From Desulfurellaceae bacterium (GTDB lineage Bacteria; Desulfobacterota; Binatia; Bin18), in NCBI GenBank assembly GCA_021296095.1, contig JAGWBB010000002.1, positions 21,463-85,462 of the forward strand: a stretch of 64,000 nt of DNA, in the 5' to 3' direction. The position numbers were made by a program, and so were the translations under genes. Shown here piece after piece: positions 47,446-59,051 of this stretch. Numbering within the stretch: the stretch's first letter is position 1; each line of letters opens with the position of its first letter. The notes beneath the pieces were generated by a model that worked only from the letters and a program-made list of their open reading frames with translations, searched no databases and was not told the DNA's origin.

Positions 47446-49527
47446 ATGCCACAGCACCATCCCCATAAATCGAATACTCCTGAAAGGCGAACGAGGCTGA
47501 CCGCCTCATCAGAAAGAGATCATCGTTCGTCTTCACGGAAACGCTACTTACAGAAGAAACCGCTGGGCGAAGCCCTGGCGCTTCTCCTCGATACCGTCAC
47601 ACCGCCACGACGAATGGAAACGGTGGCGGTGGAAGACGCCCTGGGCCGGACTACGGCCGAGCCCATCTTCGCCGTGCTGTCCGCCCCCCACTACCACGGG
47701 GCGGCCATGGACGGCATTGCGGTCCGCGCCGAGGATACCTTTGGGGCGAGTGAGTTTTCGGCCCTCAGCCTGACTGTGGTCAAGCCCGACACCAGGCGGC
47801 TCAGCTCCGACGGCCGCCCGTTTCAGTATGTGGACACCGGCAGCCCGCTGCCGGCCTGGGCCAACTCAGTCATCATGATCGAGCAGGTGTTCAAGAAGAG
47901 CGATACCGAGGTAGAAATCCGGGATGCCGCAACGCCCTGGCAGCACGTCCGCCTGGTCGGCGAGGACATTGTCGCCACCGAGCCGCTGCTGCCGCGCGGC
48001 CACACCCTGCGGCCCTACGACCTCGGCGCCCTGCTGGCCGCCGGCCACACCACTATTCCGGTTCTGGCCCGGCCAACGGTCGGCATCATTCCGACCGGCT
48101 CGGAGCTGATTGAACCGGGCGAGTTGGCCGAGCCGGGACGGATTATCGAGTTCAACTCGCGGGTGGCCGGCGCCTTTATTGAAGAGTGGGGCGGGCAGCC
48201 CAAACGCCGGCCTCGGGTTGTGGATGAGCTGGCCAAGATTGTCCGGGCGCTCAAAAAATCGGTCAGCGACAACGATGTCACCATCATCATTGCCGGCTCC
48301 TCGGCCGGTGAACACGATTTTACGCTACGCGCCCTGGAGTCGGTTGGCGAGGTCCTGGTCCACGGCATCGACGTCATGCCCGGCAAGCCGGCGATTCTGG
48401 CCGTCGTGGACGGCAAAGCGGTGATCGGTCTGCCCGGCTATCCGGTGTCGGCGGTCGTCATCTGTCAGCAGATTGTCCGCCCCCTGCTGGCCCACCTGCT
48501 GGGTCGGCCGGCCGAGGAGCCGCCTAAGATACAGGCTGTTCTGCCACGCAAGGTCCCCTCGCGGCTGGGTCTGGAAGAGTTTGTCCGGGTCAGTCTGGGC
48601 AAGGTCGGCGAGCGGCTGATTGCCAATCCGCTCGGGCGCGGTGCCGGGGTGATTACGACCATGGTCAAGGCCGACGGCGTGCTGCGGATTCCGCCGCTCG
48701 ACGAGGGGCTGAACGCCGGCCAGGAGGTGCTGATCGAACTCCTGCGCCCGGCCGAGGAGATTGCCCATACCATTCTGTTCACCGGCAGCAACGACCTCAC
48801 CATTGGTGTGCTCGACGACCAGCTGCGGGGTCAGCACCCGGGGTTCAAGATTTCGGCCAGTAATGTCGGCTCGCTGGGCGGCCTGGTCGCTCTCAAACGC
48901 GGCGAGGCGCATATCATCGGCAGCCATCTGCTCGACCCGAGCAGCGGGACCTACAACCTGCCCGACCTCAAAAAGCAGGGGCTGGTGTCCAAGGTCGTGG
49001 TGCTGAACCTGGTGATCCGCGAGCAGGGGCTGATCGTGCCCAAGGGCAATCCCAAAAAGCTGCGCGGCATCAAGGATCTGGCCCGCAAGGGCCTGCGCTT
49101 TGTCAACCGTCAGTCCGGAGCCGGCACGCGGATCTTGCTCGACTACACACTGGCCAAACTCGGCATCAGGCCGGACGCCATCCACGGCTATGAGCACGAA
49201 GAGGTCACCCACATGGCCGTGGCGGTCGCCGTGGCCAGCGGCCTGGCCGACACCGGACTCGGCGTCAAATCGGCCGCCAGAGCCCTCGGTCTGGACTTTA
49301 TCCCGGTCGAGCGCGAGGACTACGACCTCATTTTTCTCAAAGACTTCTTCAACACCGACGCCGGCCAAAAACTGGTCGCGGTGATCCGCTCCGACGCATT
49401 CAGACGGGCGGTCGAGCGCCTCGACGGCTATGACACGGCCAAGACCGGCAGCCTCAAAAGCCCGGCGCCCAAACGGACTGACAAGAAACGGGCGGGCAAG
49501 AAACCCGCAGCCCGGCGCACCGCGTAG
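47446..49527 (+). CDS. MoeA-like protein fused to a C-terminal periplasmic-binding-protein-like (PBP-like) domain
   Basis: Second MoeA module (YHGAAMDGIAV ... GSSAG ... GLPGYPVSA) followed by a ~260-aa PBP-like domain and a Lys/Arg-rich tail. Confidence 0.7.
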   Translation: MPQHHPHKSNTPERRTRLTASSERDHRSSSRKRYLQKKPLGEALALLLDTVTPPRRMETVAVEDALGRTTAEPIFAVLSAPHYHGAAMDGIAVRAEDTFGASEFSALSLTVVKPDTRRLSSDGRPFQYVDTGSPLPAWANSVIMIEQVFKKSDTEVEIRDAATPWQHVRLVGEDIVATEPLLPRGHTLRPYDLGALLAAGHTTIPVLARPTVGIIPTGSELIEPGELAEPGRIIEFNSRVAGAFIEEWGGQPKRRPRVVDELAKIVRALKKSVSDNDVTIIIAGSSAGEHDFTLRALESVGEVLVHGIDVMPGKPAILAVVDGKAVIGLPGYPVSAVVICQQIVRPLLAHLLGRPAEEPPKIQAVLPRKVPSRLGLEEFVRVSLGKVGERLIANPLGRGAGVITTMVKADGVLRIPPLDEGLNAGQEVLIELLRPAEEIAHTILFTGSNDLTIGVLDDQLRGQHPGFKISASNVGSLGGLVALKRGEAHIIGSHLLDPSSGTYNLPDLKKQGLVSKVVVLNLVIREQGLIVPKGNPKKLRGIKDLARKGLRFVNRQSGAGTRILLDYTLAKLGIRPDAIHGYEHEEVTHMAVAVAVASGLADTGLGVKSAARALGLDFIPVEREDYDLIFLKDFFNTDAGQKLVAVIRSDAFRRAVERLDGYDTAKTGSLKSPAPKRTDKKRAGKKPAARRTA

Positions 49528-49562
49528 GGCTGCGTTCCGTTTTCCTCTGCCATGATTGATCC

Positions 49563-50777
49563 ATGATCGACTTCAGCCCGCCCGCCCATGTCCAGACCGC
49601 AGTCGGCGATATCAGGCGCTTTATCGCCGACGACATCAGGCCCATGGAGCGCGAGCTGGCCGACTACCTGACCAACGAACACCTGTACCTGCAAGCCGAC
49701 GGCCGTCTCGCCCCGCCGATCCTGGCCGCCCAACGCACCATCCGCAAAATGTCTGCCAAGCGTGGCCTGTACGCCCTGCACATGCCGACCGAGGTCGGCG
49801 GCGGCGGTTTCAGCCTGACCGATATGTTCTTTGTTCACGAGGCCGTCTACCAGCACGGCATTGGGCTCAGCCAGTGGATGCTGTCGTGGACCGAGGGACC
49901 CAACCAGATGCAGATGTGGCTGAGCGAGGAGCAACAACAGCGCTACCTGTTGCCGCTGGTCCGGGGCGAGCAGACCGCCGCCTACGCCATCACCGAGTAT
50001 CGGGGCGGCTCGGACGTACTGGGCATGCAGACCCGGGCCGAGCGGCGCGGCGACGGGTGGAGCATCAATGGCACCAAAGCCTATATCACCAACGCCCAGT
50101 ACGCGGACCAGATCTTTGTCTGCGCGCTCACCGCACCCGACAAGGGTAGTGCGGGCGCGACCGCCTTTATCGTTGAGAACGACGCTCCGGGCCTCGGCAT
50201 CGGTCGCACGTATCGGACGATCATGGACGACGGCATGACCGGCGAGCTGATCTTCGACGACTGCCGGGTGCCGCTGGACAACACCTGGGGACGCGAGGGT
50301 CAGGGCTTCTACCTCAGCATGGGCATGATCAACTGGATTCGCGTCCGCCGGGGCGGCATGTGCAGCGGCCTGGGTCAGTATCTGCTCGACCGCTGCATCG
50401 ACTACACCAAAAACCGCCAGGCGTTTGGCGGCCGGCTGAGCCGTTTCCAGGCCCTGCAGTGGATGATGGTCGATTCCTATCTCGACGTGCAGGCGATGCG
50501 CAGCATGGCCTTGCAGAGCCTGTGGAAGGCCGACCAGGGCGATCTGTGGGCGCTCAAGGTTGACCCACAGCTGATCCAGACCGTGTGTGGCCTGAAAGTC
50601 TTCTGTGACGAGGCTCTGTACCGGGTCGCCGACCGGGCGGTGCAGCTGCACGGCGCCTACGGGCTCAGCAAGGACTCGGGGATTGAAAAAATCTTTCGGA
50701 TTGCCCGCAACCTGCGCATTCCGGGCGGCACGGACGAGATCCAGCGGGTGAATATTGCCAAGGCCCTGGGTCTGTGA
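49563..50777 (+). CDS. Acyl-CoA dehydrogenase family protein
   Basis: ACAD fold motifs. The 3' end (RIARNLRIPGGTDEIQRVNIAKALGL) is duplicated at 56578-56656. Confidence 0.8.
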   Translation: MIDFSPPAHVQTAVGDIRRFIADDIRPMERELADYLTNEHLYLQADGRLAPPILAAQRTIRKMSAKRGLYALHMPTEVGGGGFSLTDMFFVHEAVYQHGIGLSQWMLSWTEGPNQMQMWLSEEQQQRYLLPLVRGEQTAAYAITEYRGGSDVLGMQTRAERRGDGWSINGTKAYITNAQYADQIFVCALTAPDKGSAGATAFIVENDAPGLGIGRTYRTIMDDGMTGELIFDDCRVPLDNTWGREGQGFYLSMGMINWIRVRRGGMCSGLGQYLLDRCIDYTKNRQAFGGRLSRFQALQWMMVDSYLDVQAMRSMALQSLWKADQGDLWALKVDPQLIQTVCGLKVFCDEALYRVADRAVQLHGAYGLSKDSGIEKIFRIARNLRIPGGTDEIQRVNIAKALGL

Positions 50778-50796
50778 GGGCGTGTATTCAAATGGT

Positions 50797-51084
50797 TCAC
50801 GCCGGACGAACCACTTCGAGTTTCAAGCCTGTCGCCCGAACGACCGGAGCCAGGGTTGACCAGCGCGGCTTACCCTTGGCCGACAGCACGCGATACAGAC
50901 TCTCCCGGGGAATCCCCGCCCGTTTGGCGACCGCCGCCATGCCCTGCGCCTCGGCGACTTTCCGCAGCGCTTGCAGGAAGACCGCCGGCTCTTCGTCCTC
51001 TGCCGCTGCCGTCAGATAGTCGGCGCTGAAACCGGGATCTTTGAGCTGTTCACGCAGCCACTCGTTGTGCTTCACCTTTTTCAT
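50797..51084 (-). CDS. higA: Orphan HigA-type addiction-module antidote protein (HTH); near-identical copy of 56676-56963
   Basis: MKKVKHNEWLREQLKDPGFSA... No cognate toxin upstream; the Tn3-like IR-L begins 39 nt from its start. Confidence 0.7.
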   Translation of the reverse strand: MKKVKHNEWLREQLKDPGFSADYLTAAAEDEEPAVFLQALRKVAEAQGMAAVAKRAGIPRESLYRVLSAKGKPRWSTLAPVVRATGLKLEVVRPA

Positions 51085-51530
51085 GATCCTGTCGCTCACA
51101 GCTGCCCAACAATGCGGCAAGGTGGACCAGCGGGGGCATTTGCACAGAAACCTACGGTTTGGCGAATGTTGACCAACAGCATCACAGGATTTTCAGCCAT
51201 TGCCTCGTGCTCTCGATAAGGAATCCGCCCCCATAGGTGAGGGTTGGCCCATGTTTCAGATCGATGCGGCCCACACCGCCGCGAAAGACCGGAGTCCACA
51301 GCGCGAGATTCGTCGTCTCGCCACCGTCGTTCACGGATGGAACAAGGGATTCTGCACCTGGAATCCCTTGAACGAGTGGGCGATGCTCATCGCGCCGAGC
51401 GCAAACACCAGTACGACGGTGACGCTGACGACTCCCACAGACTTCCGTAGTCGGGGGTTTTTGCCCGCCCCCTCGAAAAGGTATAGTAGCGCGCGTCATC
51501 CGGCGAGAATCCGTCGCACGGGGCCATGGG

Positions 51531-52124
51531 CTAAGCACCACGCGTACTCTTTCCTGAGCGAGTCGTCTGATTCGCCACCAGCGTAACCGCCGTTTTTAGA
51601 GACGAGATTAGTCCGTTCAGGTCACGTCGGCTCTTCGCGCTATATTTGAATGCCATAGCTGCTGTCACAAAGAAATGGGCGAATTGGTTGAGACTTTGCC
51701 CTGACGCTTCTATCTGCTTTGTGTACGGCGACAGCAGGCGCGTAATCAGTTTCGTGTGGCGAGCATGGGATTCCGCGAGAGCGTCTCTCCCAGCTTCGTT
51801 GTGCCCGCTGATCAGATCCTCAGCGTCACCTGATGTTTGTAAGAGCTCAAAGGATTTGATGATGGTTTCCGCAAAATAGACGTCGAGTTGCGCCTCCAGG
51901 GATTCGCACGCGCCAAGGCGTGCTTCGACCTGAGACAGGTTGTGATCGGTGATGTGACGTACCGACGCAACGATCAACTGATCCTTGCTTCCAAAGACAT
52001 CGTACAGCGTCTGCCGTGAGACTTTGGCTTCTTGAGCGATGTCAGCCATCGCCGTTTTTCGGGCTCCGTATCTCACGAAGGTGCGGATGGCGGCTTCAAC
52101 AATCTTTGTTTCTATGTCAGACAT
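51531..52124 (-). CDS. TetR-family transcriptional regulator (transposon cargo)
   Basis: N-terminal HTH (AAIRTFVRYGARKTAMADIAQEAKVSRQTLYDVFGSKD). Confidence 0.85.
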   Translation of the reverse strand: MSDIETKIVEAAIRTFVRYGARKTAMADIAQEAKVSRQTLYDVFGSKDQLIVASVRHITDHNLSQVEARLGACESLEAQLDVYFAETIIKSFELLQTSGDAEDLISGHNEAGRDALAESHARHTKLITRLLSPYTKQIEASGQSLNQFAHFFVTAAMAFKYSAKSRRDLNGLISSLKTAVTLVANQTTRSGKSTRGA

Positions 52125-52390
52125 ATGCGCCCTGTACGTGGCTCCTCGTGTTTTAGGGAGCTAATTGTAGCAAAAATGGACTACTTGACAATACTCATAT
52201 TTATGTAAAACTACAACTTTACAGATGTCGTTAGTTTGTACACCCAGAACGCATTGGAGGATGGTGAGCGAGCCCAGATTCTAAGCCTGAATGCAGCTCA
52301 TGTTTTTAAGTTTGCAATTCCTGCGCGCTGTCTGAAGCACGCAGGTGCAGCAGCCGTTGCCTCGGCAGTGGCGTATCGAGAGGAGAGCAC

Positions 52391-53209
52391 ATGGAGAACA
52401 ACAGGAGTCAGAAGGTCATTTTGATTACGGGCGCCTCTTCCGGCATCGGTAAGGAGTCAGCCAAACAGCTCGTCTCAAAAGGGTATCGCGTATACGCGGC
52501 AGCCCGGCGACTTGAGCAGATGCAAGATCTTGAAGCACTCGGATGCGCGACGATCAGGATGGACATCTCGAAAGAAGAAGAGGTGGAAGAAGTCGTCGGC
52601 AACATCTTGGACGAAGCAGGGACAGTTGATGTGCTCGTCAATAACGCAGGGTATGCAACCCAAGGGCCAGTCGAAGAAATGCCTTTGGAGGATGCCCGGG
52701 CAATCTTCGATGTCAACCTGTTCGGACTTGGGTACCTCACGAAGCTGGTCCTACCCGGCATGCGGGAACAGGGCGCAGGGAGGATCGTTAATATTGGCTC
52801 TGCAGGCGGGAAGGTCTATCTGCCTTTGAGTGCCTGGTATATCGCGTCCAAGCATGCATTGGAAGGCTGGAACGATTGCTTGCGCACGGAGTTAAAGCAA
52901 TTTGGGATTGACGTCGTGTTGATTGAACCCGGCGCCATTGCTACGGAGTTCAACGGTGTGGCCATGAGCTCCATATTAGAAAGATCGGGCGATGGCCCGT
53001 ACGGCAAGTTGGCCCATGCGTATGTCAATCTGGACGTACCAGAATCACATCCGTCCGTCATCGCGGATGTGATTGTGAAGGCGGTTGAGACAAAAAAGAC
53101 GAAATACCGCTACGTCGCTGGAAAGATGGCTAGGACAACGATCGGAATGCGGAAGTGGTTGGGGGACAAAGCGTACGACCGGCTTCTCGACACCATTTAC
53201 AAAGTGTAG
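52391..53209 (+). CDS. SDR-family short-chain oxidoreductase (transposon cargo)
   Basis: TGASSGIG cofactor motif, NNAG, and the Y-x3-K catalytic motif (YIASK). Confidence 0.85.
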   Translation: MENNRSQKVILITGASSGIGKESAKQLVSKGYRVYAAARRLEQMQDLEALGCATIRMDISKEEEVEEVVGNILDEAGTVDVLVNNAGYATQGPVEEMPLEDARAIFDVNLFGLGYLTKLVLPGMREQGAGRIVNIGSAGGKVYLPLSAWYIASKHALEGWNDCLRTELKQFGIDVVLIEPGAIATEFNGVAMSSILERSGDGPYGKLAHAYVNLDVPESHPSVIADVIVKAVETKKTKYRYVAGKMARTTIGMRKWLGDKAYDRLLDTIYKV

Positions 53210-53360
53210 ACATCCCTAGCTCTACGCTGAGGTCTCTCAACAAGGAATCAATCAATGAGCAATCGTACCGTTGGTTTCGTTGGTCTCGGCGCGATGGGTG
53301 AACCCATGGTCGCCCGGGAACAACGGTGCTCCTCATGCGCACGATAATCTCTTTTTGTGA

Positions 53361-53861
53361 GTGATGAACATGACACTATTGCATGCAAAATGGTTTCTGT
53401 CGCTATTGCTGCTGACTGTGGGGGGCTGTCATTCTGTGTATACAGAACTGACGATCCCAGCCGGTCCCGAAGAAATTTGGCCCATCTTAACAGATGCCCC
53501 GGGATATCAAGAGTGGAACCCGGTCTTTGTTCACGTCGAAGGTGAATACCGGGAAGGGGGAACGCTCCAATATCAGATGAAATCCCCTGACAGTGAACAA
53601 ATGGCTGTGCAGGCGACCGTGAAAAAATTGGTTCCCAACAAAGAGTTGAACCAATATGGCGGCTTTCCTGGAGTTTTGACCTTTAGCCACACCTATCTTC
53701 TGGAACCTGTCGATGGAGGGACTCGCGTCATTCAAAAGGAGGAATACCGCGGCATATGGGTGCCGTTTTGGGATTCGAGTTGGGTGGAGCCAGCCTATAA
53801 TAAAGTGAATGAAGCCCTCCAGGACAGGGTGGCGCAGTTGAAGGAGAATGGACGACCATAA
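53361..53861 (+). CDS. SRPBCC (Bet v1-like / polyketide-cyclase-like) protein with an N-terminal lipoprotein-type signal (transposon cargo)
   Basis: LLLTVGGC lipobox-like N-terminus and SRPBCC-like length and pattern. Confidence 0.6.
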   Translation: MMNMTLLHAKWFLSLLLLTVGGCHSVYTELTIPAGPEEIWPILTDAPGYQEWNPVFVHVEGEYREGGTLQYQMKSPDSEQMAVQATVKKLVPNKELNQYGGFPGVLTFSHTYLLEPVDGGTRVIQKEEYRGIWVPFWDSSWVEPAYNKVNEALQDRVAQLKENGRP

Positions 53862-53897
53862 CTACCGTGCCTCGGCAATCTGCATCACCTCCATCGT

Positions 53898-54455
53898 CTA
53901 CGGGGAGGCACTCGGTGCGCTGAGATAGCGATAGACACTGGCTTTGGAGAGTTGGTAGTCCGCCATTAAGATTTTAATGAGTGTTCCTTTCTTGCGTCGG
54001 CGTCGCAGTTCCGTGGTCTTTTGGGGAGTCAACTGCTTTTGCCGGCCGAAGTGCACGCCGCGCGCTTTGGCTTGCTGTATCCCATCCATCTGGCGCTCGG
54101 CCCGAATCTCCGTCTCAAACTGCGCAATGGCTCCCAACATATTGAACAGCAAGCGGCCGGTCGCATCACTGGTGTCGATATGCTGATCGAGGACCTGAAG
54201 ATGGACCTGTTTGCGAGCGAGCTCGTCGGCAATCTGACACAGATGCAGGGTCGAGCGCGCCAAGCGGTCTAAGCGCGTGACGACGAGTGTATCGCCTTCT
54301 CTTACGTACTCCAAGCAGGCGTGTAGCCGGGGCCGCTTGTGGGTCGCACCGCTCTTTTTCTCTTGAAAGAGTTTATCGCAGTGTTTGAGCTTCTCACGCT
54401 GAACGGCCAGACTTTGGCCTACTGAACTGACGCGCGCATACCCGACCAAGGCCAT
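53898..54455 (-). CDS. tnpR: Serine recombinase (Tn3-type resolvase TnpR)
   Basis: MALVGYARVSSVGQSLAVQ... catalytic Ser motif and C-terminal HTH. Confidence 0.85.
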   Translation of the reverse strand: MALVGYARVSSVGQSLAVQREKLKHCDKLFQEKKSGATHKRPRLHACLEYVREGDTLVVTRLDRLARSTLHLCQIADELARKQVHLQVLDQHIDTSDATGRLLFNMLGAIAQFETEIRAERQMDGIQQAKARGVHFGRQKQLTPQKTTELRRRRKKGTLIKILMADYQLSKASVYRYLSAPSASP

Positions 54456-54595
54456 CGCTTGACTCCTCGTGTTTCAGTATGTCTCAGGCTATGTGCGAAG
54501 GCCACAATGAGACATGAATTGAGACACGTCAAGAGCAGTGTCTTGGAAGGTCTACCTTTGGAGACGCTGCGCTCCCCTACAGAAAGGTCCTCTCT

Positions 54596-55330
54596 ATGCC
54601 CATGCCCGAACAGTTTTTACCCAACCGCAAGCGCACGCAGCCCATCTCCCTGCCTCACGACTTTTCCGACGAAGAGATGGACCGCGACTGGTTTTTATCC
54701 GCAAAGGATAAAACCGAGATCAACAAGTATTGGCGCAGCTTCCGATTGGGGATCGCCGTCCAGCTCTGCGCGGTCCGCTTATATGGGCGCTTCTTGACCG
54801 GTCTCCAAGACCTTTCGCCACGCATTCTTAACCACCCCGCCAGCCAGCTCGCGCTGCCTCCGACCCTCACGATTGAAGAACCCGAGCGAGAAGCGACGGC
54901 ATTGGAGCAGCGCAAGAATATCCTCCGCTATCTGGGCTTTCAGCGCTTCGATAACACCCGTCAAGCGCAGCTCCAGAGCTGGTTGGAAGAGCAGGCCAAA
55001 CAGTACCGTCATAAGCTGCCCCGCCGGGTGTTCTTTGCCGATCAAGGCGAATTCACCACCGGCGATTATGAGGCGCTCATGAACAAAGCCAGCTGCTTGA
55101 GTCTGGTGTCGAACGCCATCCTGTATTGGAATACGCTCAAGATTACGGACATTGTGGACCAGCTCAGACAGCAGGGGGAAGCAATTGAGGACGAGACCTT
55201 AGCGCATGTCTCGTTGTTGCCATTTAAGCATGTCCTGCCCAATGGCACCTATTTTTTTAACGACGACTATCCGAGGGCATTTGGCCAGAAAGGTACGGTT
55301 CTGACTCCAGGACGCCGCCCGAAACCGTAG
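54596..55330 (+). pseudogene. tnpA: Internally deleted Tn3-family transposase: DUF4158-like N-terminus fused to the extreme C-terminus, 244 aa against a full length of about 1000
   Basis: N-terminal RLGIAVQLCAVRLYGRFL and C-terminal SNAILYWNT ... LLPFKHV..NG.Y.F resemble the Tn3 TnpA termini. The stop lies inside IR-R. Confidence 0.65.
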
Positions 55331-55438
55331 GTTTCTGTTCAAATGCCCCCGCTGGTCCAAGGTCTCAAACAGCATCTTCCCTGCACTTGCACCTAGGTTT
55401 GATATCTTTTGTAAATTTCCTGGTCTGAGAGAGCTGTT

Positions 55439-55699
55439 TCATTGCTCCCAGCTCTCGAACATGTCTTCCAGCGTGTCGAAGGTTTCCACATCCTCCCCCG
55501 TGCGGCTTTTCTCAAGTGTCTGTTTTGTCAAGGCATTCGGAATCAGGATGGGAAACGGCAGGCCCCCATGCAGACAGATCTGGCGGTAAAAGAGCCGAAT
55601 TGCCTCAGTGGGGGTAAGACCGAGTTTTCGGAGTACACTTTCGGCCTGCTTCTTGGTCTGCGGCTCCACACGCGCATGGACGACGGCTGATTTATTCAT
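55439..55699 (-). CDS. RelB/DinJ-family antitoxin (orphan; no toxin gene downstream before the transposon IR-R)
   Basis: MNKSAVVHARVEPQTKKQAESVLRKLGLTPTEAIRLFYRQ. Confidence 0.7.
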   Translation of the reverse strand: MNKSAVVHARVEPQTKKQAESVLRKLGLTPTEAIRLFYRQICLHGGLPFPILIPNALTKQTLEKSRTGEDVETFDTLEDMFESWEQ

Positions 55700-55992
55700 G
55701 CGGTCCAGCGTGTCACACATGCAACACACCATCAAGCTTGTCCCATCGTCATTGACCCACCCCCGCCACCTTGACAATCCCTCTGCTTGCTCCAGGTTGT
55801 TCTGCTATAAGCGTCCAGGTTTCCACAGGATATACTCCTACAGAAAACGGAGATACCGTCGGCATCTCGTGTGTGACCGAGTTATGTCGCTCCAACAGTC
55901 ATCAGCGCGCACAGTACGGATACGAGATAGTGCGTTTAGCATCAATATCGTGACCGTTGTTCAGAGAGTACCATAGTGGTACCATCGGCGGG

Positions 55993-56196
55993 ATGCCGCC
56001 GAAAATTCGAGAGCTGATCAAAGACTTGGAAGCGGCTGGATTCGTCAACAGAGGCGGAAGAGGAAGCCACAGAAATTTCAAGCATCCACAAGGCGTTCGT
56101 ATCACCATCAGCGGCAGACTGGGGAGCGATGCCCAGGCGTACCAAGAGCGCGAGGTGAAGAGAGCCATAGACAGAGTCCGTCATGAAAAAGAGTGA
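55993..56196 (+). CDS. hicA: HicA toxin
   Basis: MPPKIRELIKDLEAAGFVNRGGRGSHRNFKHPQG. Confidence 0.8.
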   Translation: MPPKIRELIKDLEAAGFVNRGGRGSHRNFKHPQGVRITISGRLGSDAQAYQEREVKRAIDRVRHEKE

Positions 56197-56521
56197 TCGC
56201 TACCTGAAAATCGTCGAATGGTCCGACGAGGACCAGTGCTATATCGGAAGAGCCCCCGGCGTCATGCTGGGTGGGGTACACGGCCGGAATGAGGCCGAGG
56301 TGTACGCCGAACTGTGTACGGCCGTAGAAGAGTGGATACACATCCAGGAGACCGATGGCGACCCGCTCCCGCCCGAGACCGCAAACAAGACGTATTCGGG
56401 CAAATTCAACCTGCGGGTAGGCAAAGTCCTGCACCAACGGCTGGCCGTCGCTGCCCGCAAAGCCGACCAGAGCCTGAATGCATTTTGTGTCAAAGCCCTC
56501 GAAAAGGCGCTTGGCGGCTAG
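56183..56521 (+). CDS. hicB: HicB antitoxin
   Basis: HicB N-terminal RNase-H-like fold region (YIGRAPGV...GVHGRNEAEVYAEL) and a C-terminal DNA-binding tail. Confidence 0.75.
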   Translation: MKKSDRYLKIVEWSDEDQCYIGRAPGVMLGGVHGRNEAEVYAELCTAVEEWIHIQETDGDPLPPETANKTYSGKFNLRVGKVLHQRLAVAARKADQSLNAFCVKALEKALGG

Positions 56522-56577
56522 CAGCCTATTGATGAGAGTATACTCTTCAGAAGCTCTTTCTCGTTGCCTTATGGTCA

Positions 56578-56656
56578 GATTGCCCGCAACCTACGCATTC
56601 CGGGCGGCACGGACGAAATCCAGCGGGTGAATATTGCCAAGGCCCTGGGGTTGTGA
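56578..56656 (+). pseudogene. Duplicated 3'-terminal fragment of the acyl-CoA dehydrogenase gene (26 codons plus stop)
   Basis: About 95% identical to 50699-50777. The homology continues through the adjacent higA copy. Confidence 0.7.
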
Positions 56657-56675
56657 GGGCGGTCAGTCAGGTCGC

Positions 56676-56963
56676 TCACGTCACGCGAACCACTTCGATC
56701 TTCAAGCCCGTTGCCCGAACGACCGGAGCCAGGGTTGACCAGCGCGGGTTGCCCTTGGCCGACAGCACGCGATACAGACTTTCCCGGGGAATCCCCGCCC
56801 GTTTGGCAACCGTCGCCATGCCCTGCGCCTCGGCGACTTTTCGCAGCGCTTGCAGGAAGACCGCCGGCTCTTCGTCCTCTGCCGCCGCCGTCAAATACTC
56901 GGCGCTGAAACCGGGATCTTTGAGCTGTTCACGCAGCCACTCGTTGTGCTTCACCTTTTTCAT
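56676..56963 (-). CDS. higA: HigA-type addiction-module antidote protein
   Basis: Paralogue of 50797-51084. Lies downstream of higB. Confidence 0.75.
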   Translation of the reverse strand: MKKVKHNEWLREQLKDPGFSAEYLTAAAEDEEPAVFLQALRKVAEAQGMATVAKRAGIPRESLYRVLSAKGNPRWSTLAPVVRATGLKIEVVRVT

Positions 56964-56995
56964 GATCCCGTCGCTCACTTCCAGCTCACAGTACG

Positions 56996-57316
56996 TCACA
57001 GTCTTGACCGCCAGTCCTTCAATCGCGCCTTCGCCGCTGCAATGTCAGACTGTTGCGTCCCCTTGGTGCCACCACACAGCAGCAAAATGACGTGCTTCTG
57101 GGTCGTGGCAAAGTAGACGCGGTACCCAGGGCCATAATTAATCCGCAGTTCCATGACTCCACCCTTCACTGATCGACAGTCACCCAGCAAACCGAATTCG
57201 AGGCGTTCAACCCGCGCCGCGATCCGCGCTACTGCCCTCTGGTCTCGCAAGCTGCTCAGCCAGGCATCAATCAAATCTCGCCCGTCAGCATCGGTGTAGT
57301 GGAGAACTTCAGCCAT
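56996..57316 (-). CDS. higB: HigB/RelE-type addiction-module killer protein
   Basis: 106-aa RelE-fold protein (MELRINYGPGYRVYF...VILLLCGGTKGTQ). Confidence 0.75.
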   Translation of the reverse strand: MAEVLHYTDADGRDLIDAWLSSLRDQRAVARIAARVERLEFGLLGDCRSVKGGVMELRINYGPGYRVYFATTQKHVILLLCGGTKGTQQSDIAAAKARLKDWRSRL

Positions 57317-57377
57317 AGAAGTCTTGGAAACTGTAACTTATTCGTTACATATGTCAAGGCATTGTTATGGCTAGGTC

Positions 57378-57560
57378 CAGGAAGTCGATGGCGACCCGCT
57401 CCCGCCCGAGACCGTAAACAAGGCGTATTCGGGCAAATTCAACCTGCGGGTAGGCGAAGCCCTGCACCAACGGCTGGCCGTCGCTGCCCGCAAAGCCGAT
57501 CAGAGCCTGAACGCATTTTGTGTCAAAGCCCTCGAAAAGGCGCTTGGCGGCTAGCAGCCT
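57378..57560 (+). pseudogene. Duplicated 3' half of hicB (about 90% identical to 56350-56530)
   Basis: Clear nucleotide homology, including the stop and the trailing CTAGCAGCCT. Confidence 0.65.
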
Positions 57561-57604
57561 CCCGCCACCTTGACAATCCCCCGCCTGCCCCATACTGCGT
57601 CCGA

Positions 57605-58924
57605 ATGAAGACCTCCCCCGCGGCGACCAGGGAACTGGCCGCTCCCCCTCCCCCGGCTCCCGCACCGCGCATCTTTTACGGCTGGATCGTACTCGGCCTG
57701 GCCTTTACCGTCCTGTTTTTCGCCTACGGCATTCAGTTCACGTTCGGGGTGTTCATGCCGGCCATTGAGGCCGATACGGGCTGGGATCGGGCCAGCCTGT
57801 CCCTGCCCTATGCCCTGTATGTGTTCCTGTACAGCGCCCTGGGAGCCGCCAGCGGCTGGGCGACTGATCGCTGGGGGCCGCGGGTGGTGATCCTGAGCGG
57901 GGGATGTCTGCTGGGCGGTGGTATTCTGCTGACCAGCCAAGTGCAGGAGCTGTGGCAGCTGTATGTCAGCCTCGGGCTCATTGCCGCCATGGGCATGAGC
58001 GCAGCCTTTGTGCCGTGCAACTCCACGGTCGTACGCTGGTTCATACGGCGCCGGGGCCTGGCTCTGAGTATTTCAACCAGCGGCGGCAGCATGGGCAATT
58101 TCCTTTTTCCGCCGCTTGCCGCCGCCCTGATCGGCGCCTATGGCTGGCGTTCGGCGTATCTGATTCTGGGCAGTGTCGGCCTGACCGTCATCGGCCTGTG
58201 CGCGGTGTTCATCGTGCGCGATCCACAACAGCTGAACCTCCAGCCGGACGGCGCTGCCCCGGCGCCGGCACAGGAAGAGCCGCACCCCCATACCGTTTCC
58301 GGAGCGGGCTACACGCTCGCCGAGGCGCGCGGGACGCTTTCTTTCTGGCTACTGAACCTCGTGTTTACCCTGACCTGGCTGGTCGTGTTCATGCCGTTTA
58401 TTCACCTCGTTCCGTTTGCCATCGACCTGGGCGTGCCCCAGGTTGGGGCGGCCACGGTGATGAGTGTGATGGGTCTCGGCAGTCTGAGCGGCCGGCTGCT
58501 GAGCGGCGCCATCTCCGACCGCCTGGGACGCCTGCCGACCCTGGGCATCAGCCTGGCCCTGCAAATGCTGGCCTTTATCGGCTTTATGCTGAGCAGCGAT
58601 CTGCGCCTGCTGTACCCCAGCGCGCTGATCTTCGGCGTGGCCTACGGCGGGGCGGCCACCCTGTTTCCGGCCATTGTGGGAGATTTTTTTGGTCTGATAT
58701 CGGTCGGCGCGATTGTCGGTTTCATCTTTGCCGTTGCCGGCTCGACCGCCGCCTTCGGTCCCTATATCGCCGGCTACATCTATGACGCCAGCGGTTCGTA
58801 TACCACGGCTTTTCTGCTCGGAGCGGGGCTCAATCTGCTCGGTCTGGGGGTGCTCTTTTTTGTCAGAAAGCCGCCGGCCAAGGGGATCGCGCCAGCCCCT
58901 GCGGCAGCTGTTCACAGCAGGTGA
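57605..58924 (+). CDS. MFS transporter (OFA-like)
   Basis: 12-TM MFS pattern. The ORF is open upstream to 57299, but the hydrophobic start is at MKTSP. Confidence 0.8.
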   Translation: MKTSPAATRELAAPPPPAPAPRIFYGWIVLGLAFTVLFFAYGIQFTFGVFMPAIEADTGWDRASLSLPYALYVFLYSALGAASGWATDRWGPRVVILSGGCLLGGGILLTSQVQELWQLYVSLGLIAAMGMSAAFVPCNSTVVRWFIRRRGLALSISTSGGSMGNFLFPPLAAALIGAYGWRSAYLILGSVGLTVIGLCAVFIVRDPQQLNLQPDGAAPAPAQEEPHPHTVSGAGYTLAEARGTLSFWLLNLVFTLTWLVVFMPFIHLVPFAIDLGVPQVGAATVMSVMGLGSLSGRLLSGAISDRLGRLPTLGISLALQMLAFIGFMLSSDLRLLYPSALIFGVAYGGAATLFPAIVGDFFGLISVGAIVGFIFAVAGSTAAFGPYIAGYIYDASGSYTTAFLLGAGLNLLGLGVLFFVRKPPAKGIAPAPAAAVHSR

Positions 58925-58972
58925 GCCTTGCGTCGCTCTTGTTGTTTGCCGTCACTCAGGATATGGCACACC

Positions 58973-59038
58973 CCAAGTCCAGGCCAAGTCCAGGCCAAGT
59001 CCAGGCCAAGTCCAGGCCAAGTCCAGGCCAAGTCCAGG
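58973..59038. repeat. Six perfect tandem copies of the 11-mer CCAAGTCCAGG immediately upstream of the ribosome-binding site of the hydrolase gene
   Basis: Read directly in the sequence. The repeat is followed by CG AGGAGG AAGCC ATG. Confidence 0.9.
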
Positions 59039-59051
59039 CGAGGAGGAAGCC

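What the first reader, a model, noticed from the sequence alone, without database searches (positions are those of the whole stretch)
50699..57560. Mosaic toxin-antitoxin island built by segmental duplication and transposon insertion
A ~420-bp block, consisting of the last 26 codons of acdh plus a complete higA, occurs twice (50699-51122 and 56578-57000) at about 95% identity. The downstream copy has its higB toxin. The upstream copy is an orphan antitoxin that abuts IR-L of a Tn3-like element. Between the two copies lie the transposon, an orphan relB/dinJ (its expected toxin position is occupied by IR-R), and a hicAB pair. After higB lies a duplicated 3' half of hicB. The 20-mer CCCGCCACCTTGACAATCCC recurs at 55757 and 57561. 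The pattern suggests repeated integration and recombination at one site, with antitoxin genes surviving toxin loss. This would be expected if the antitoxins cross-neutralise paralogous toxins elsewhere.
Basis: seen in the sequence. Interest (0 to 1): 0.7.

Follow-up and report, generated by a model that had tools for sequence, protein, structure and literature searches.

The report
Toxin-antitoxin hot spot with stacked alleles
A 6.8-kb patchwork of toxin-antitoxin genes and a dead Tn3-type transposon sits between two housekeeping genes of an uncultured Binatia bacterium; it is a real, well-resolved example of a known kind of fast-turnover spot, where toxin genes are lost first and orphan antitoxin genes stay under selection.

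Summary
The repeats are real. Repeat A is 404 bp at 92.3%, not ~420 bp at 95%. The hicB-3' repeat is 185 bp at 95.1%. The 20-mer is at 55762 and 57561. About 30 Binatia species have acdh and the MFS gene adjacent, so the 6.8-kb island is an insertion hot spot.

The Tn3-family element (51124-55358) is a simple insertion. It has 37-bp IRs and a 5-bp duplication, AAGGT, and relative L001 shows the empty site. It landed in a yafQ toxin gene that was already truncated, so it did not orphan relB. Its transposase lacks about 750 internal residues.

The "duplication" is not a recent copy. Copy 1 matches the L001 allele (higA-yafQ'-relB-hicAB) and copy 2 matches the L086 allele (acdh-higA-higB-hicB). 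Two alternative alleles of one locus are stacked, most likely by recombination anchored in a flanking core gene. An independent 220-kb assembly (L089) has the same junctions, so this is not a one-off artefact.

Orphan relB and higA are under purifying selection (dN/dS 0.04-0.2), while the adjacent yafQ remnant drifts (80% identity). Some strains show further decay.

The pattern is already described for TA spots and for orphan immunity arrays. Cross-neutralisation remains untested.

The parts
49563..50777 (+). acdh (acyl-CoA dehydrogenase), left core-gene flank and probable recombination anchor
   Evidence: Pfam Acyl-CoA_dh_N/M/1. Orthologues found in 45 Binatia loci. Window-to-L089 identity falls from about 99% to 95-97% in its 3' part.
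50696..51099 (.). Repeat A copy 1 (acdh 3' end + spacer + higA1), L001-type allele
   Evidence: 404 bp, 92.3% identical to 56575-56978. The spacer at 50783-50796 groups with L001.
50797..51084 (-). higA1, orphan HigA-type antitoxin (95 aa from ATG 51084)
   Evidence: PF21716 2.8e-19. No higB upstream. The same orphan state occurs in L001. Against L001: Sd 16, Nd 8, p 2.6e-5.
51100..51123 (-). Distal piece of the yafQ 5' remnant, including the left target-site duplication AAGGT (51119-51123)
   Evidence: Contiguous with 55359 onwards in the empty site of L001. The resemblance to L041 yafQ codons ~26-35 is by eye, so this part is an inference.
51124..55358 (.). Defective Tn3-family transposon, 4235 bp, GC 54% against 64% in the flanks
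   Evidence: 37-bp IRs at 51124-51160 and 55322-55358 with 1 mismatch, and a 5-bp TSD. Empty site in L001. The same element at 99-100% identity is at the same site in 8 other contigs.
51182..51541 (-). orfX', truncated passenger ORF downstream of tetR
   Evidence: No Pfam hit. In L090 the ORF runs for at least 344 aa, and homology to the window stops at 51218. This indicates an internal deletion near IR-L.
51531..52124 (-). tetR-family regulator (passenger gene)
   Evidence: PF00440 4.8e-13.
52391..53209 (+). Short-chain dehydrogenase (passenger gene)
   Evidence: PF00106 2.3e-51.
53361..53861 (+). SRPBCC / polyketide-cyclase-like protein (passenger gene)
   Evidence: PF10604 3.7e-14.
53898..54455 (-). 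tnpR, serine resolvase
   Evidence: PF00239 6.4e-41. The identical protein is on 8 other contigs.
54596..55330 (+). tnpA', in-frame internal deletion of a Tn3-family transposase (244 aa)
   Evidence: DUF4158 plus only the last 83 positions of DDE_Tnp_Tn3. It aligns to residues 1-136 and about 887-974 of a 977-aa Alteromonas TnpA.
55359..55442 (-). Right TSD AAGGT (55359-55363) plus the first ~25 codons of a truncated yafQ toxin gene
   Evidence: tblastn with L041 YafQ residues 1-24, 67% identity, E 8.6e-5. Intact YafQ in L041: PF15738 2.9e-35. The remnant is only 80% identical to that of L001.
55439..55699 (-). relB/dinJ, orphan antitoxin (86 aa)
   Evidence: PF04221 7e-13. dN/dS 0.04-0.10 in all comparisons. 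Window vs L001: Sd 13, Nd 2, p 2.8e-7.
55762..55781 (+). 20-mer copy 1: duplicated piece of the MFS upstream region at the left edge of the hicAB segment
   Evidence: Exact repeat of 57561-57580. L041, which lacks hicAB, has a single copy.
55993..56196 (+). hicA toxin (67 aa from the ATG; the listed ORF starts at TTG 55957)
   Evidence: PF07927 3.3e-9. Intact in L002, L089 and L090; truncated in L086; deleted in L091.
56183..56521 (+). hicB antitoxin (112 aa)
   Evidence: PF05534 8.9e-14.
56343..56527 (.). Repeat B copy 1 (hicB 3' half, haplotype 1)
   Evidence: 185 bp, 95.1% identical to 57376-57560. Haplotype analysis.
56528..56574 (.). 47-bp junction of unknown origin between hicB and acdh'; contains the palindrome AGAGTATACTCT
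   Evidence: Unique in the window and in all fetched loci except L089, which has the same junction.
56575..56978 (.). Repeat A copy 2 (acdh' fragment 56575-56656 + spacer + higA2), L086-type allele
56676..56963 (-). higA2 antitoxin, paired with higB
   Evidence: PF21716 7e-19. 6 of 95 residues differ from HigA1.
56996..57316 (-). higB toxin (Gp49/HigB family, 106 aa)
   Evidence: PF05973 1e-6. A 94% identical protein sits next to acdh in L086. L089 carries a 197-bp deletion here.
57317..57375 (-). higBA promoter/operator region (TTGACA-16-TACAGT; inverted repeat GTAAC-N6-GTTAC)
   Evidence: Promoter-like site at 57357-57330 on the minus strand. 93% identical to the L086 region upstream of higB.
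57376..57560 (+). Repeat B copy 2: hicB' 3' fragment (haplotype 2), no start codon
   Evidence: Its last 6 bp (CAGCCT) match copy 1, whereas L089 keeps the native CTCCCT, which points to gene conversion.
57561..57580 (+). 20-mer copy 2: native sequence upstream of the MFS gene, containing TTGACA
   Evidence: Conserved upstream of the MFS gene in species with the empty site, e.g. L004.
57605..58924 (+). MFS transporter gene, right core-gene flank
   Evidence: PF07690 7.1e-48. Adjacent to acdh in about 30 species.

Best explanation
The acdh-MFS intergenic spacer of this Binatia lineage is a high-turnover spot. Type II toxin-antitoxin cassettes (yafQ-relB, hicAB, higBA) are gained there, exchanged between lineages by recombination, and eroded toxin-first.

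The window's version arose in three layers.

1. An older allele, acdh-higA-yafQ'-relB-hicA-hicB-MFS (L001-type). Most of the yafQ toxin gene had already been replaced by a promoterless higA, leaving two orphan antitoxins.

2. A second, alternative allele of the same locus, acdh-higA-higB-...hicB-MFS (L086-type), became stacked next to the first. One end of the incoming DNA recombined homologously in a flanking gene. The other end joined illegitimately inside acdh codon ~379 or just after hicB. This is homology-facilitated illegitimate recombination or an equivalent single-crossover event. It explains the acdh' fragment, the second higA, the hicB' fragment and the 47-bp junction. The two 'repeats' are therefore allelic homology rather than a fresh copy. 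Later gene conversion partly homogenised the hicB repeats.

3. A Tn3-family transposon inserted by ordinary transposition (5-bp duplication AAGGT) into the dead yafQ remnant. It later lost about 750 codons of tnpA and part of a passenger ORF, so it is now immobile. The Tn-bearing segment has since moved between diverged backgrounds by homologous recombination.

Toxins go first because losing the antitoxin first is lethal. The surviving relB and higA are not mere debris, because they are kept by purifying selection. The most likely reason is that they neutralise incoming or resident cognate toxins (here HigB) and repress their promoters, acting as anti-addiction or immunity genes.

Shown: the anatomy, the empty site, the allele types, independent assembly, and selection on the orphans. 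Inferred: the recombination route, the order of layers 2 and 3, and the protective function.
For: Hot spot
- acdh and MFS are adjacent, 110-150 bp apart, in about 30 species.
- Close relatives carry yafQ-relB (L041), yafQ'-relB-hicAB (L002), higA-yafQ'-relB-hicAB (L001), higA-higB-hicA'-hicB (L086) or a hicB remnant (L003).
- A distant species has an unrelated hicAB plus a CopG antitoxin at the same site.

Transposon
- 37-bp IRs, TSD AAGGT, and a single AAGGT in the L001 empty site.
- The tnpA deletion is shown.
- Tn genes are 99.2-100% identical among four contigs whose flanks are 94.6-98% identical.

Stacked alleles
- A1, A2, L001 and L086 are roughly equidistant (91.3-93.6%).
- The diagnostic spacer sites group A1 with L001 and A2 with L086.
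- higB at 94% protein identity lies next to acdh in L086.
- Both hicB-3' haplotypes occur as single-copy alleles in other strains.

Independent support
- L089 (220-kb contig, a different sample, ~98% identical) has the same B1|47 bp|acdh' junction and the same promoter|hicB' junction, with private mutations.
- A mirror-image case exists in L099. A 331-bp MFS 5' fragment is duplicated at 84% identity, flanking inserted TIR genes.
- Divergence between the window and L089 rises inside acdh.

Selection on the orphans
- relB dN/dS is 0.04-0.10. For window vs L001, which share the same truncation junction, Sd is 13 and Nd is 2, p 2.8e-7.
- The adjacent yafQ remnant is only 80% identical between the same two genomes.
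- Orphan higA, window vs L001: Sd 16, Nd 8, p 2.6e-5.

Erosion
- yafQ is truncated in two different ways (L002 vs L001/window).
- L089 has a 197-bp deletion in higB plus a higA2 frameshift.
- relB has a nonsense codon in L090 and a frameshift in L091.
- hicA is truncated or deleted in L086 and L091.

Published parallels: PMC13617665, PMC7192599, PMC5361080.
Against: - The donor of the 47-bp junction was not found in any fetched locus. An allele with exactly higB-promoter|hicB' as a single copy was not found either.
- The data cannot say which unit was resident and which was incoming.
- The hicB repeats share three derived changes relative to L001, L002 and L086. That fits an in-lineage origin or gene conversion as well as import.
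- The region recombines so often that divergence between the copies is a poor clock.
- relB is inactivated in two strains (L090, L091) and higA2 in L089, so selection on the antitoxins is not universal.
- Some of the purifying-selection signal could have accrued in lineages that still had the toxin and then been imported by recombination.
- No expression or toxicity data exist. In the window, higA1 is cut off from the relB promoter by the transposon.
Confidence: 0.6

Rival explanations
1. In-situ tandem duplication. An unequal exchange between sister chromosomes duplicated the whole interval from acdh codon ~379 to the end of hicB in an ancestor. The two units then diverged over a long time and decayed differently (unit 1 lost higB, unit 2 lost hicA and the hicB 5' half). 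Relatives lost one unit by recombination between the repeats.
For: - The layout is formally a tandem repeat of [acdh'-higA-...-hicB 3'].
- The hicB repeats are each other's closest relatives (95.1% to each other, 91-94% to L001 and L002) and share derived sites.
- L001, L090 and L091 could be deletion products of B1 x B2 recombination.
Against: - Copy 1 shares its exact higA|yafQ' junction with L001, so a copy made after that junction formed could not contain higB.
- L086 (full hicB plus hicA') cannot be derived from the tandem by repeat recombination.
- The single hicB of L090 keeps an ancestral site that neither window copy has.
- Copies A1 and A2 are no closer to each other than to orthologues in other species.
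- Even under this model, unit 1 still needs an imported yafQ'-relB-hicA segment, so recombination with other alleles is required anyway.
Confidence: 0.2
2. Assembly artefact. Two co-existing strain haplotypes of the locus were concatenated by the assembler.
For: - The genome is very probably a metagenome-assembled genome, since all relatives are MAGs.
- Several haplotypes of this locus co-exist in public samples.
- Short-read contigs L092 and L093 break inside or near the hicB repeat.
Against: - An independent 220-kb contig from another sample (L089) has the same junctions, plus private changes (a higB 197-bp deletion, a higA2 frameshift and a different left junction).
- The junction contains 47 bp of unique sequence and lies at non-homologous points (mid-acdh and mid-hicB). 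Haplotype switching would not produce that.
- Copies at 92-95% identity are easy for assemblers to separate.
Confidence: 0.03
3. Transposon-driven rearrangement. The Tn3-family element caused the toxin losses and the duplication through adjacent deletion, cointegrate resolution or recombination between two Tn copies, or it brought TA genes in as cargo.
For: - Tn3-family elements can make adjacent deletions and often carry TA pairs (PMC7157771).
- L089 and L091 do show a secondary deletion that removes IR-L and higA1.
Against: - There is a perfect 5-bp TSD, and the flanks are contiguous in L001.
- L001 has the same orphan higA and truncated yafQ without any Tn.
- All TA genes lie outside the IRs.
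- L090 and L091 carry the Tn but not the second unit.
- The window contains only one Tn copy.
Confidence: 0.03
4. Site-specific cassette integration. The 20-mer acts as an attachment site and TA cassettes are integrated there by a recombinase, as in integrons.
For: - The 20-mer directly flanks the hicAB-containing segment.
- L041 has one copy and no hicAB.
Against: - No integrase lies in or near the island.
- The 20-mer is the conserved native sequence upstream of the MFS gene in species with an empty site.
- The left copy is degenerate or absent in L001 and L002, which still have hicAB.
- A deletion between short direct repeats explains L041 equally well.
Confidence: 0.04

Closest known systems
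Chromosomal TA 'spots' with acquisition and erosion (Belot et al. 2026, Mol Biol Evol, PMC13617665)
   Same: - Several type II TA systems cluster in a small intergenic spot with high turnover.
- Independent acquisitions occur at the same location.
- Loss is mostly by toxin pseudogenisation or loss of both genes, rarely antitoxin alone.
- There is an association with a cointegrate-forming (Tn3-type) transposase.
   Different: - The host is an uncultured Binatia lineage, not Photorhabdus.
- No integrase or active transposase can be tied to the TA gains. The footprints (acdh' and MFS' fragments) point to recombination anchored in the flanking core genes rather than delivery by a mobile element.
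- The orphans show measurable purifying selection.
Orphan immunity-gene arrays built by sequential displacement (V. cholerae T6SS, Kirchberger et al. 2017, PMC5361080; also Rhs/CDI orphan modules cited there)
   Same: - An incoming toxin/immunity module is anchored by homology in a conserved flank and joined illegitimately at the other end.
- The old toxin is displaced or lost while the old protective gene is retained.
- Fragments of the conserved flanking gene are left behind.
- The arrays are mosaic and differ between strains.
   Different: - These are intracellular type II TA pairs, not secreted effectors with immunity proteins.
- The conserved anchor is an unrelated metabolic gene (acdh), not the 5' part of the toxin gene.
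- The array is short: two orphans plus two pairs.
Orphan antitoxins and anti-addiction modules (K. pneumoniae survey, PMC7192599; the anti-addiction concept of Saavedra De Bast et al. 2008 is cited from my own knowledge)
   Same: - Intact antitoxin genes sit without a toxin in the genomic context of a former pair.
- The hypothesis is that they neutralise homologous toxins.
   Different: - The cognate toxin for HigA1 is in the same island (HigB; the two HigA proteins differ at 6 of 95 residues).
- Neutralisation has not been tested here.
Tn3-family transposons, including TA-carrying members (Lima-Mendez et al. 2020, PMC7157771)
   Same: - IRs of about 38 bp and a 5-bp TSD.
- Divergent tnpR and tnpA.
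- Passenger genes.
   Different: - tnpA has an in-frame deletion of about 750 residues, so the element is non-autonomous.
- The TA genes lie outside the IRs and predate the insertion, so this is not a TA-carrying Tn3 member.
- The IR starts GGACCAGCGGGGG rather than with the usual terminal GGGG (the usual form is from my own knowledge).

Membership tests
Tn3-family transposon | Terminal inverted repeats of about 38 bp | tested here: met
   37-bp IRs at 51124-51160 and 55322-55358 with 1 mismatch. Near-identical 38-39-bp ends occur next to resolvase genes on E. coli and Acaryochloris plasmids.
Tn3-family transposon | 5-bp target-site duplication | tested here: met
   AAGGT at 51119-51123 and 55359-55363. 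A single AAGGT is present in the empty site of L001.
Tn3-family transposon | Large (~1000 aa) DDE transposase of the Tn3 type | tested here: inconclusive
   Only a 244-aa in-frame remnant is present: DUF4158 plus the last 83 positions of DDE_Tnp_Tn3. It equals residues 1-136 and ~887-974 of a 977-aa homologue. The ancestry is clear but the catalytic core is absent, so this is a defective member.
Tn3-family transposon | Site-specific resolvase and res site | tested here: met
   A serine resolvase (PF00239, 6.4e-41) is divergent from tnpA'. The res site itself was not analysed.
HigBA type II TA (second unit) | RelE-fold HigB/Gp49 toxin encoded upstream of an HTH HigA antitoxin in one operon | tested here: met
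   HigB is PF05973 (1e-6). HigA is PF21716 (7e-19) with a weak, sub-threshold HTH_31 match. The order is toxin first, with a 32-bp spacer and a promoter-like site with a palindrome upstream. The same pair occurs in L086, L087 and L088.
HigBA type II TA (second unit) | Toxin inhibits growth and the antitoxin neutralises it | not testable with these tools
   Needs a kill/rescue assay.
RelB(DinJ)-YafQ type II TA | RelB/DinJ antitoxin followed by a YafQ/RelE toxin gene | tested here: not met
   RelB is present (PF04221, 7e-13). Only about 25 codons (plus ~8 more across the Tn) of the 90-codon yafQ remain. The intact pair exists in L041 (PF15738, 2.9e-35). In the window this is an orphan antitoxin, not a TA system.
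HicAB type II TA | HicA toxin gene upstream of, and overlapping, a HicB antitoxin gene | tested here: met
   HicA is PF07927 (3.3e-9) and HicB is PF05534 (8.9e-14), with a 14-bp overlap. Both ORFs are intact. Activity was not tested.
Homology-facilitated illegitimate recombination / sequential-displacement array | One junction lies in homologous flank DNA and the other at a non-homologous point, leaving a partial duplicate of the flank gene | tested here: met
   The acdh' fragment starts at codon ~379 and is joined through 47 unique bp to the end of hicB. The mirror-image MFS' fragment occurs in L099.
Homology-facilitated illegitimate recombination / sequential-displacement array | Inserted segment demonstrably of foreign (other-lineage) origin | tested here: inconclusive
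   Unit 2 is L086-type and unit 1 is L001-type. However, no exact donor was found, and the hicB repeats look like sisters.
Anti-addiction / protective orphan antitoxin | Orphan antitoxin gene maintained by selection after toxin loss | tested here: met
   relB window vs L001: Sd 13, Nd 2, p 2.8e-7, with the adjacent yafQ remnant at 80% identity. higA: Sd 16, Nd 8, p 2.6e-5. Inactivated copies exist in L089, L090 and L091.
Anti-addiction / protective orphan antitoxin | Orphan neutralises a homologous toxin in trans | not testable with these tools
   Needs co-expression assays.

The most novel reading that the evidence does not exclude
At this spot, TA cassettes are traded between Binatia lineages without any dedicated recombinase. 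The route is homology-facilitated illegitimate recombination anchored in the flanking core genes, which leaves acdh' and MFS' fragments as footprints. The orphan antitoxins relB and higA are then kept by selection as an 'immunity array' that disarms incoming cognate toxins. This would be the TA counterpart of the orphan immunity arrays of T6SS, Rhs and CDI loci.
Probability: 0.35. Interest if true: 0.5.

Novelty: new member of a known kind. Interest (0 to 1): 0.3.

Why it matters
The locus gives an unusually complete series of evolutionary states for one TA spot in an uncultured phylum. The states run from the empty site, through a single intact pair, toxin-truncated orphans, stacked alleles and a transposon hit, to further decay.

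It gives sequence-level evidence for two points that are usually only inferred:
- TA cassettes can enter by recombination anchored in neighbouring core genes rather than on a mobile element.
- Orphan antitoxins can remain under purifying selection long after their toxin is gone.

It does not reveal a new kind of system. Its value is as a worked example and as a source of testable pairs: HigB with two HigA variants, and RelB with the YafQ of a sister lineage.

Tried and rejected
- Exact-protein look-ups of the window's acdh, HigB and HicB found nothing. The source genome itself is not in that index.
- The plasmid searches with the transposon found only the IRs, the resolvase and the transposase ends. 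No full-length relative or named element was found.
- I first read the transposon as lacking a target duplication, which would imply an adjacent deletion or recombination between two Tn copies. The L001 empty site showed that the outermost T/A of the apparent 38-bp IR belongs to a 5-bp duplication, so I dropped that idea.
- I looked for the 47-bp junction and for the 108 bp (55768-55875) present in the window but not in L001. Searches covered all fetched loci and the window, and found no source.
- I tried to decide which unit was resident from hicB-3' haplotypes and flank-identity profiles. The region recombines too much to tell.
- I searched the window for further HigB, YafQ or HicA paralogues and found none. 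The rest of the genome could not be searched.
- No structure prediction or RNA-family search was run, because neither bears on the question.

Full report
**Observation**

- Repeat A (50696-51099 vs 56575-56978) is 404 bp, ungapped and 92.3% identical (E 2e-169).
- Repeat B (56343-56527 vs 57376-57560) is 185 bp and 95.1% identical.
- The 20-mer CCCGCCACCTTGACAATCCC lies at 55762 and 57561.
- A pair of inverted repeats brackets 51124-55358.

Pfam confirms the gene calls:
- acyl-CoA dehydrogenase (49563-50777)
- HigA twice (PF21716)
- HigB/Gp49 (56996-57316)
- RelB (55439-55699)
- HicA and HicB
- inside the inverted repeats: TetR, an SDR, an SRPBCC protein, a serine resolvase and a 244-aa Tn3-type transposase remnant
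- an MFS transporter (57605-58924)

**Whose genome, and what is ancestral**

A scan of one genome per species with the acdh protein returned 74 loci. The best are Candidatus Binatia MAGs at 92-98% protein identity.

In about 30 of these species, acdh is followed after 110-150 bp by the MFS gene. The whole 6.8-kb stretch between them in the window is therefore an insertion into a conserved spacer.

The close relatives carry different contents:
- L041: acdh-yafQ-relB-MFS, with an intact YafQ toxin (PF15738, 2.9e-35).
- L002: about 8 codons of yafQ, then relB-hicA-hicB.
- L001: higA, about 24 codons of yafQ, then relB-hicA-hicB.
- L003: a hicB remnant.
- L086 (found through a 94% identical HigB): acdh-higA-higB, then a 5'-truncated hicA, then hicB-MFS.

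A more distant species (L006) holds an unrelated hicAB and a CopG antitoxin in the same spacer. L007 and L033 hold other genes there.

L099 holds a gene of unknown function, hicB, a duplicated 331-bp promoter-plus-5' fragment of the MFS gene (84% identical to the intact copy), and two TIR-domain genes.

This spacer is a hot spot.

**The transposon**

In L001 the window's left flank (up to 51123) and right flank (from 55358) are contiguous and overlap by CAAGGT.

Read against that empty site, the element is 51124-55358 (4235 bp). It has 37-bp IRs with one mismatch and a 5-bp duplication, AAGGT. That is the Tn3-family signature.

The insertion point lies inside the yafQ remnant. About 25 yafQ codons survive between relB and IR-R (tblastn E 8.6e-5). 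The 24 bp between higA1 and IR-L are contiguous with them in L001.

Because L001 has the same orphan higA and the same truncated yafQ without any transposon, the transposon did not orphan either antitoxin.

The transposase aligns to residues 1-136 and about 887-974 of a 977-aa Alteromonas homologue, so the catalytic core is missing.

The ORF after tetR is also truncated relative to L090, where it runs for at least 344 aa.

GC content is 54% in the element against 64% in the flanks.

**Population variants**

An exact-match look-up of the resolvase found eight more contigs carrying the same element at the same site.

- L092 is 100% identical to 51423-56248.
- L089 is a 220-kb contig from another sample, about 98% identical. 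It has the same hicB|47 bp|acdh' junction and the same higB-promoter|hicB' junction as the window. It also has private changes:
  - a deletion that removes higA1 and IR-L
  - a 197-bp deletion inside higB
  - a frameshift in higA2
- L090 and L091 carry the transposon but no second unit.
  - L090 has a nonsense codon in relB.
  - L091 has a relB frameshift and lacks hicA.

Transposon genes are 99.2-100% identical among these contigs, while adjacent genes are 94.6-98% identical. The Tn-bearing segment is therefore younger than the alleles around it, and has moved between backgrounds by homologous recombination.

Identity between the window and L089 is about 99% in the far flanks but falls to 95-97% in the 3' part of acdh.

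**Is the duplication a duplication?**

Copies A1 and A2 and the orthologous segments of L001 and L086 are roughly equidistant (91.3-93.6%).

The only clustered informative sites lie in the spacer after the acdh stop codon. They group A1 with L001 and A2 with L086.

A1 ends at the higA|yafQ' junction that it shares with L001. A2 continues into higB, as in L086.

So the window holds an L001-type allele and an L086-type allele of the same locus side by side.

The hicB repeats are closer to each other than to L001 or L002. However, both haplotypes also occur as single-copy full-length hicB genes: haplotype 1 in L091 and haplotype 2 in L090.

The last 6 bp of the window's second copy match the first copy, whereas L089 keeps the native sequence there. 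That points to gene conversion.

The simplest route is one recombination event with a homologous anchor in a flanking gene and an illegitimate joint. The joint would lie either at resident acdh codon ~379 (unit 1 incoming) or just after hicB (unit 2 incoming). I could not decide between these two.

The 47-bp junction has no match in anything I fetched.

A plain in-situ tandem duplication needs additional imports and does not account for L086. I rate it at 0.2.

An assembly artefact is very unlikely given L089.

**The 20-mer**

The 20-mer is the conserved sequence upstream of the MFS gene. It contains TTGACA and is present in species with the empty site. I infer that it is part of the MFS promoter.

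Its second copy marks the left edge of the hicAB segment. L041 has one copy and no hicAB.

**Selection on the orphans**

relB has dN/dS of 0.04-0.10 in every comparison.

Between the window and L001, which share the same yafQ truncation junction, relB differs at 13 synonymous and 2 non-synonymous sites (p 2.8e-7 against neutrality). The adjoining yafQ remnant is only 80% identical.

Orphan higA shows Sd 16 and Nd 8 (p 2.6e-5).

The orphans are therefore maintained, although not in every strain.

Toxin-first loss is the only viable order of decay. That fact alone explains why orphans exist. The selection signal suggests that they also do something. The most likely roles are neutralising and repressing cognate toxins such as the HigB 6 kb away, since the two HigA proteins differ at only 6 of 95 residues.

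This function is an inference. No other HigB, YafQ or HicA paralogue lies in the window.

**Comparison with what is known**

- Clustering of TA systems in small high-turnover spots, repeated acquisition at one site, predominance of toxin pseudogenisation, and co-occurrence with cointegrate-forming transposases are all described for Photorhabdus (PMC13617665).
- Abundant orphan antitoxins and the anti-addiction idea are discussed for Klebsiella (PMC7192599).
- The closest mechanistic analogue is the sequential displacement model for orphan immunity arrays in V. cholerae T6SS clusters, which invokes homology-facilitated illegitimate recombination (PMC5361080).
- TA pairs carried inside Tn3-family elements (PMC7157771) are a different situation, because here the TA genes lie outside the IRs.

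**Verdict**

It is wrong on two causal points. The copies are stacked diverged alleles rather than a fresh segmental duplication. The transposon landed in a toxin gene that was already dead.

This is a well-documented new instance of a known kind of locus. Interest 0.3.

Noticed in passing
window 58962-59049: An 11-bp tandem repeat, CCAAGTCCAGG, lies just upstream of the ATG (59046) of the alpha/beta-hydrolase gene. Exact copy number differs between relatives: window 6, L041 5, L002 3, L001 2, L089 2. This could be a contingency-type VNTR near a start codon.
   Followed up: partly
L099 4346-6045: In another Binatia lineage the same spot holds a 331-bp duplicate (84% identical) of the MFS promoter plus the first ~96 codons. 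The duplicates flank two TIR-domain genes (ThsB_TIR/TIR_2), and a 381-aa gene with no Pfam hit on record lies next to acdh. So the spot also takes up defence-type genes, and it leaves a mirror-image flank-gene fragment.
   Followed up: partly
L006 9590-10498: A more distant species (acdh 82% identical) carries an unrelated hicAB pair (PF07927, PF15919) and a CopG/RHH antitoxin in the same acdh-MFS spacer.
   Followed up: partly
L087 1607-8497: A close higBA relative (88% HigB identity) sits directly upstream of a five-gene cluster with the Pfam families Metallophos/GAAD, GASH, DO-GTPase2, DO-GTPase1 and GAP1-N1. This looks like a GTPase-centred conflict system.
   Followed up: no
window 51124-51160 and 55322-55358; L075, L097: The transposon's 37-bp ends are 95-97% identical over 38-41 bp to sequences next to resolvase genes on E. 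coli, E. albertii and Acaryochloris plasmids. The rest of the element has no close relative there. The same end sequence is therefore spread across distant phyla.
   Followed up: partly
L090 5031-6062 (equivalent to the region left of window 51218): The ORF following tetR in the transposon is at least 344 aa long in L090 and has no Pfam match. The window keeps only its first ~110 codons. The function of this passenger gene is unknown.
   Followed up: partly
L089 10295-10438 (between window 52161 and 52163): L089 has 143 extra bp in the tetR-SDR intergenic region of the transposon relative to the window.
   Followed up: no
window 49300-49600: Identity to L001, L041 and L086 dips to 84-89% in this 300-bp block, which covers the end of the MoeA-PBP fusion gene and the start of acdh. 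Neighbouring blocks are at 93-96%. This may be a local recombination tract or a variable linker.
   Followed up: no
window 56535-56546: The 47-bp junction contains a perfect 12-bp palindrome, AGAGTATACTCT. This might be an operator or a recombination-related site. It was found nowhere else in the fetched data except L089.
   Followed up: partly
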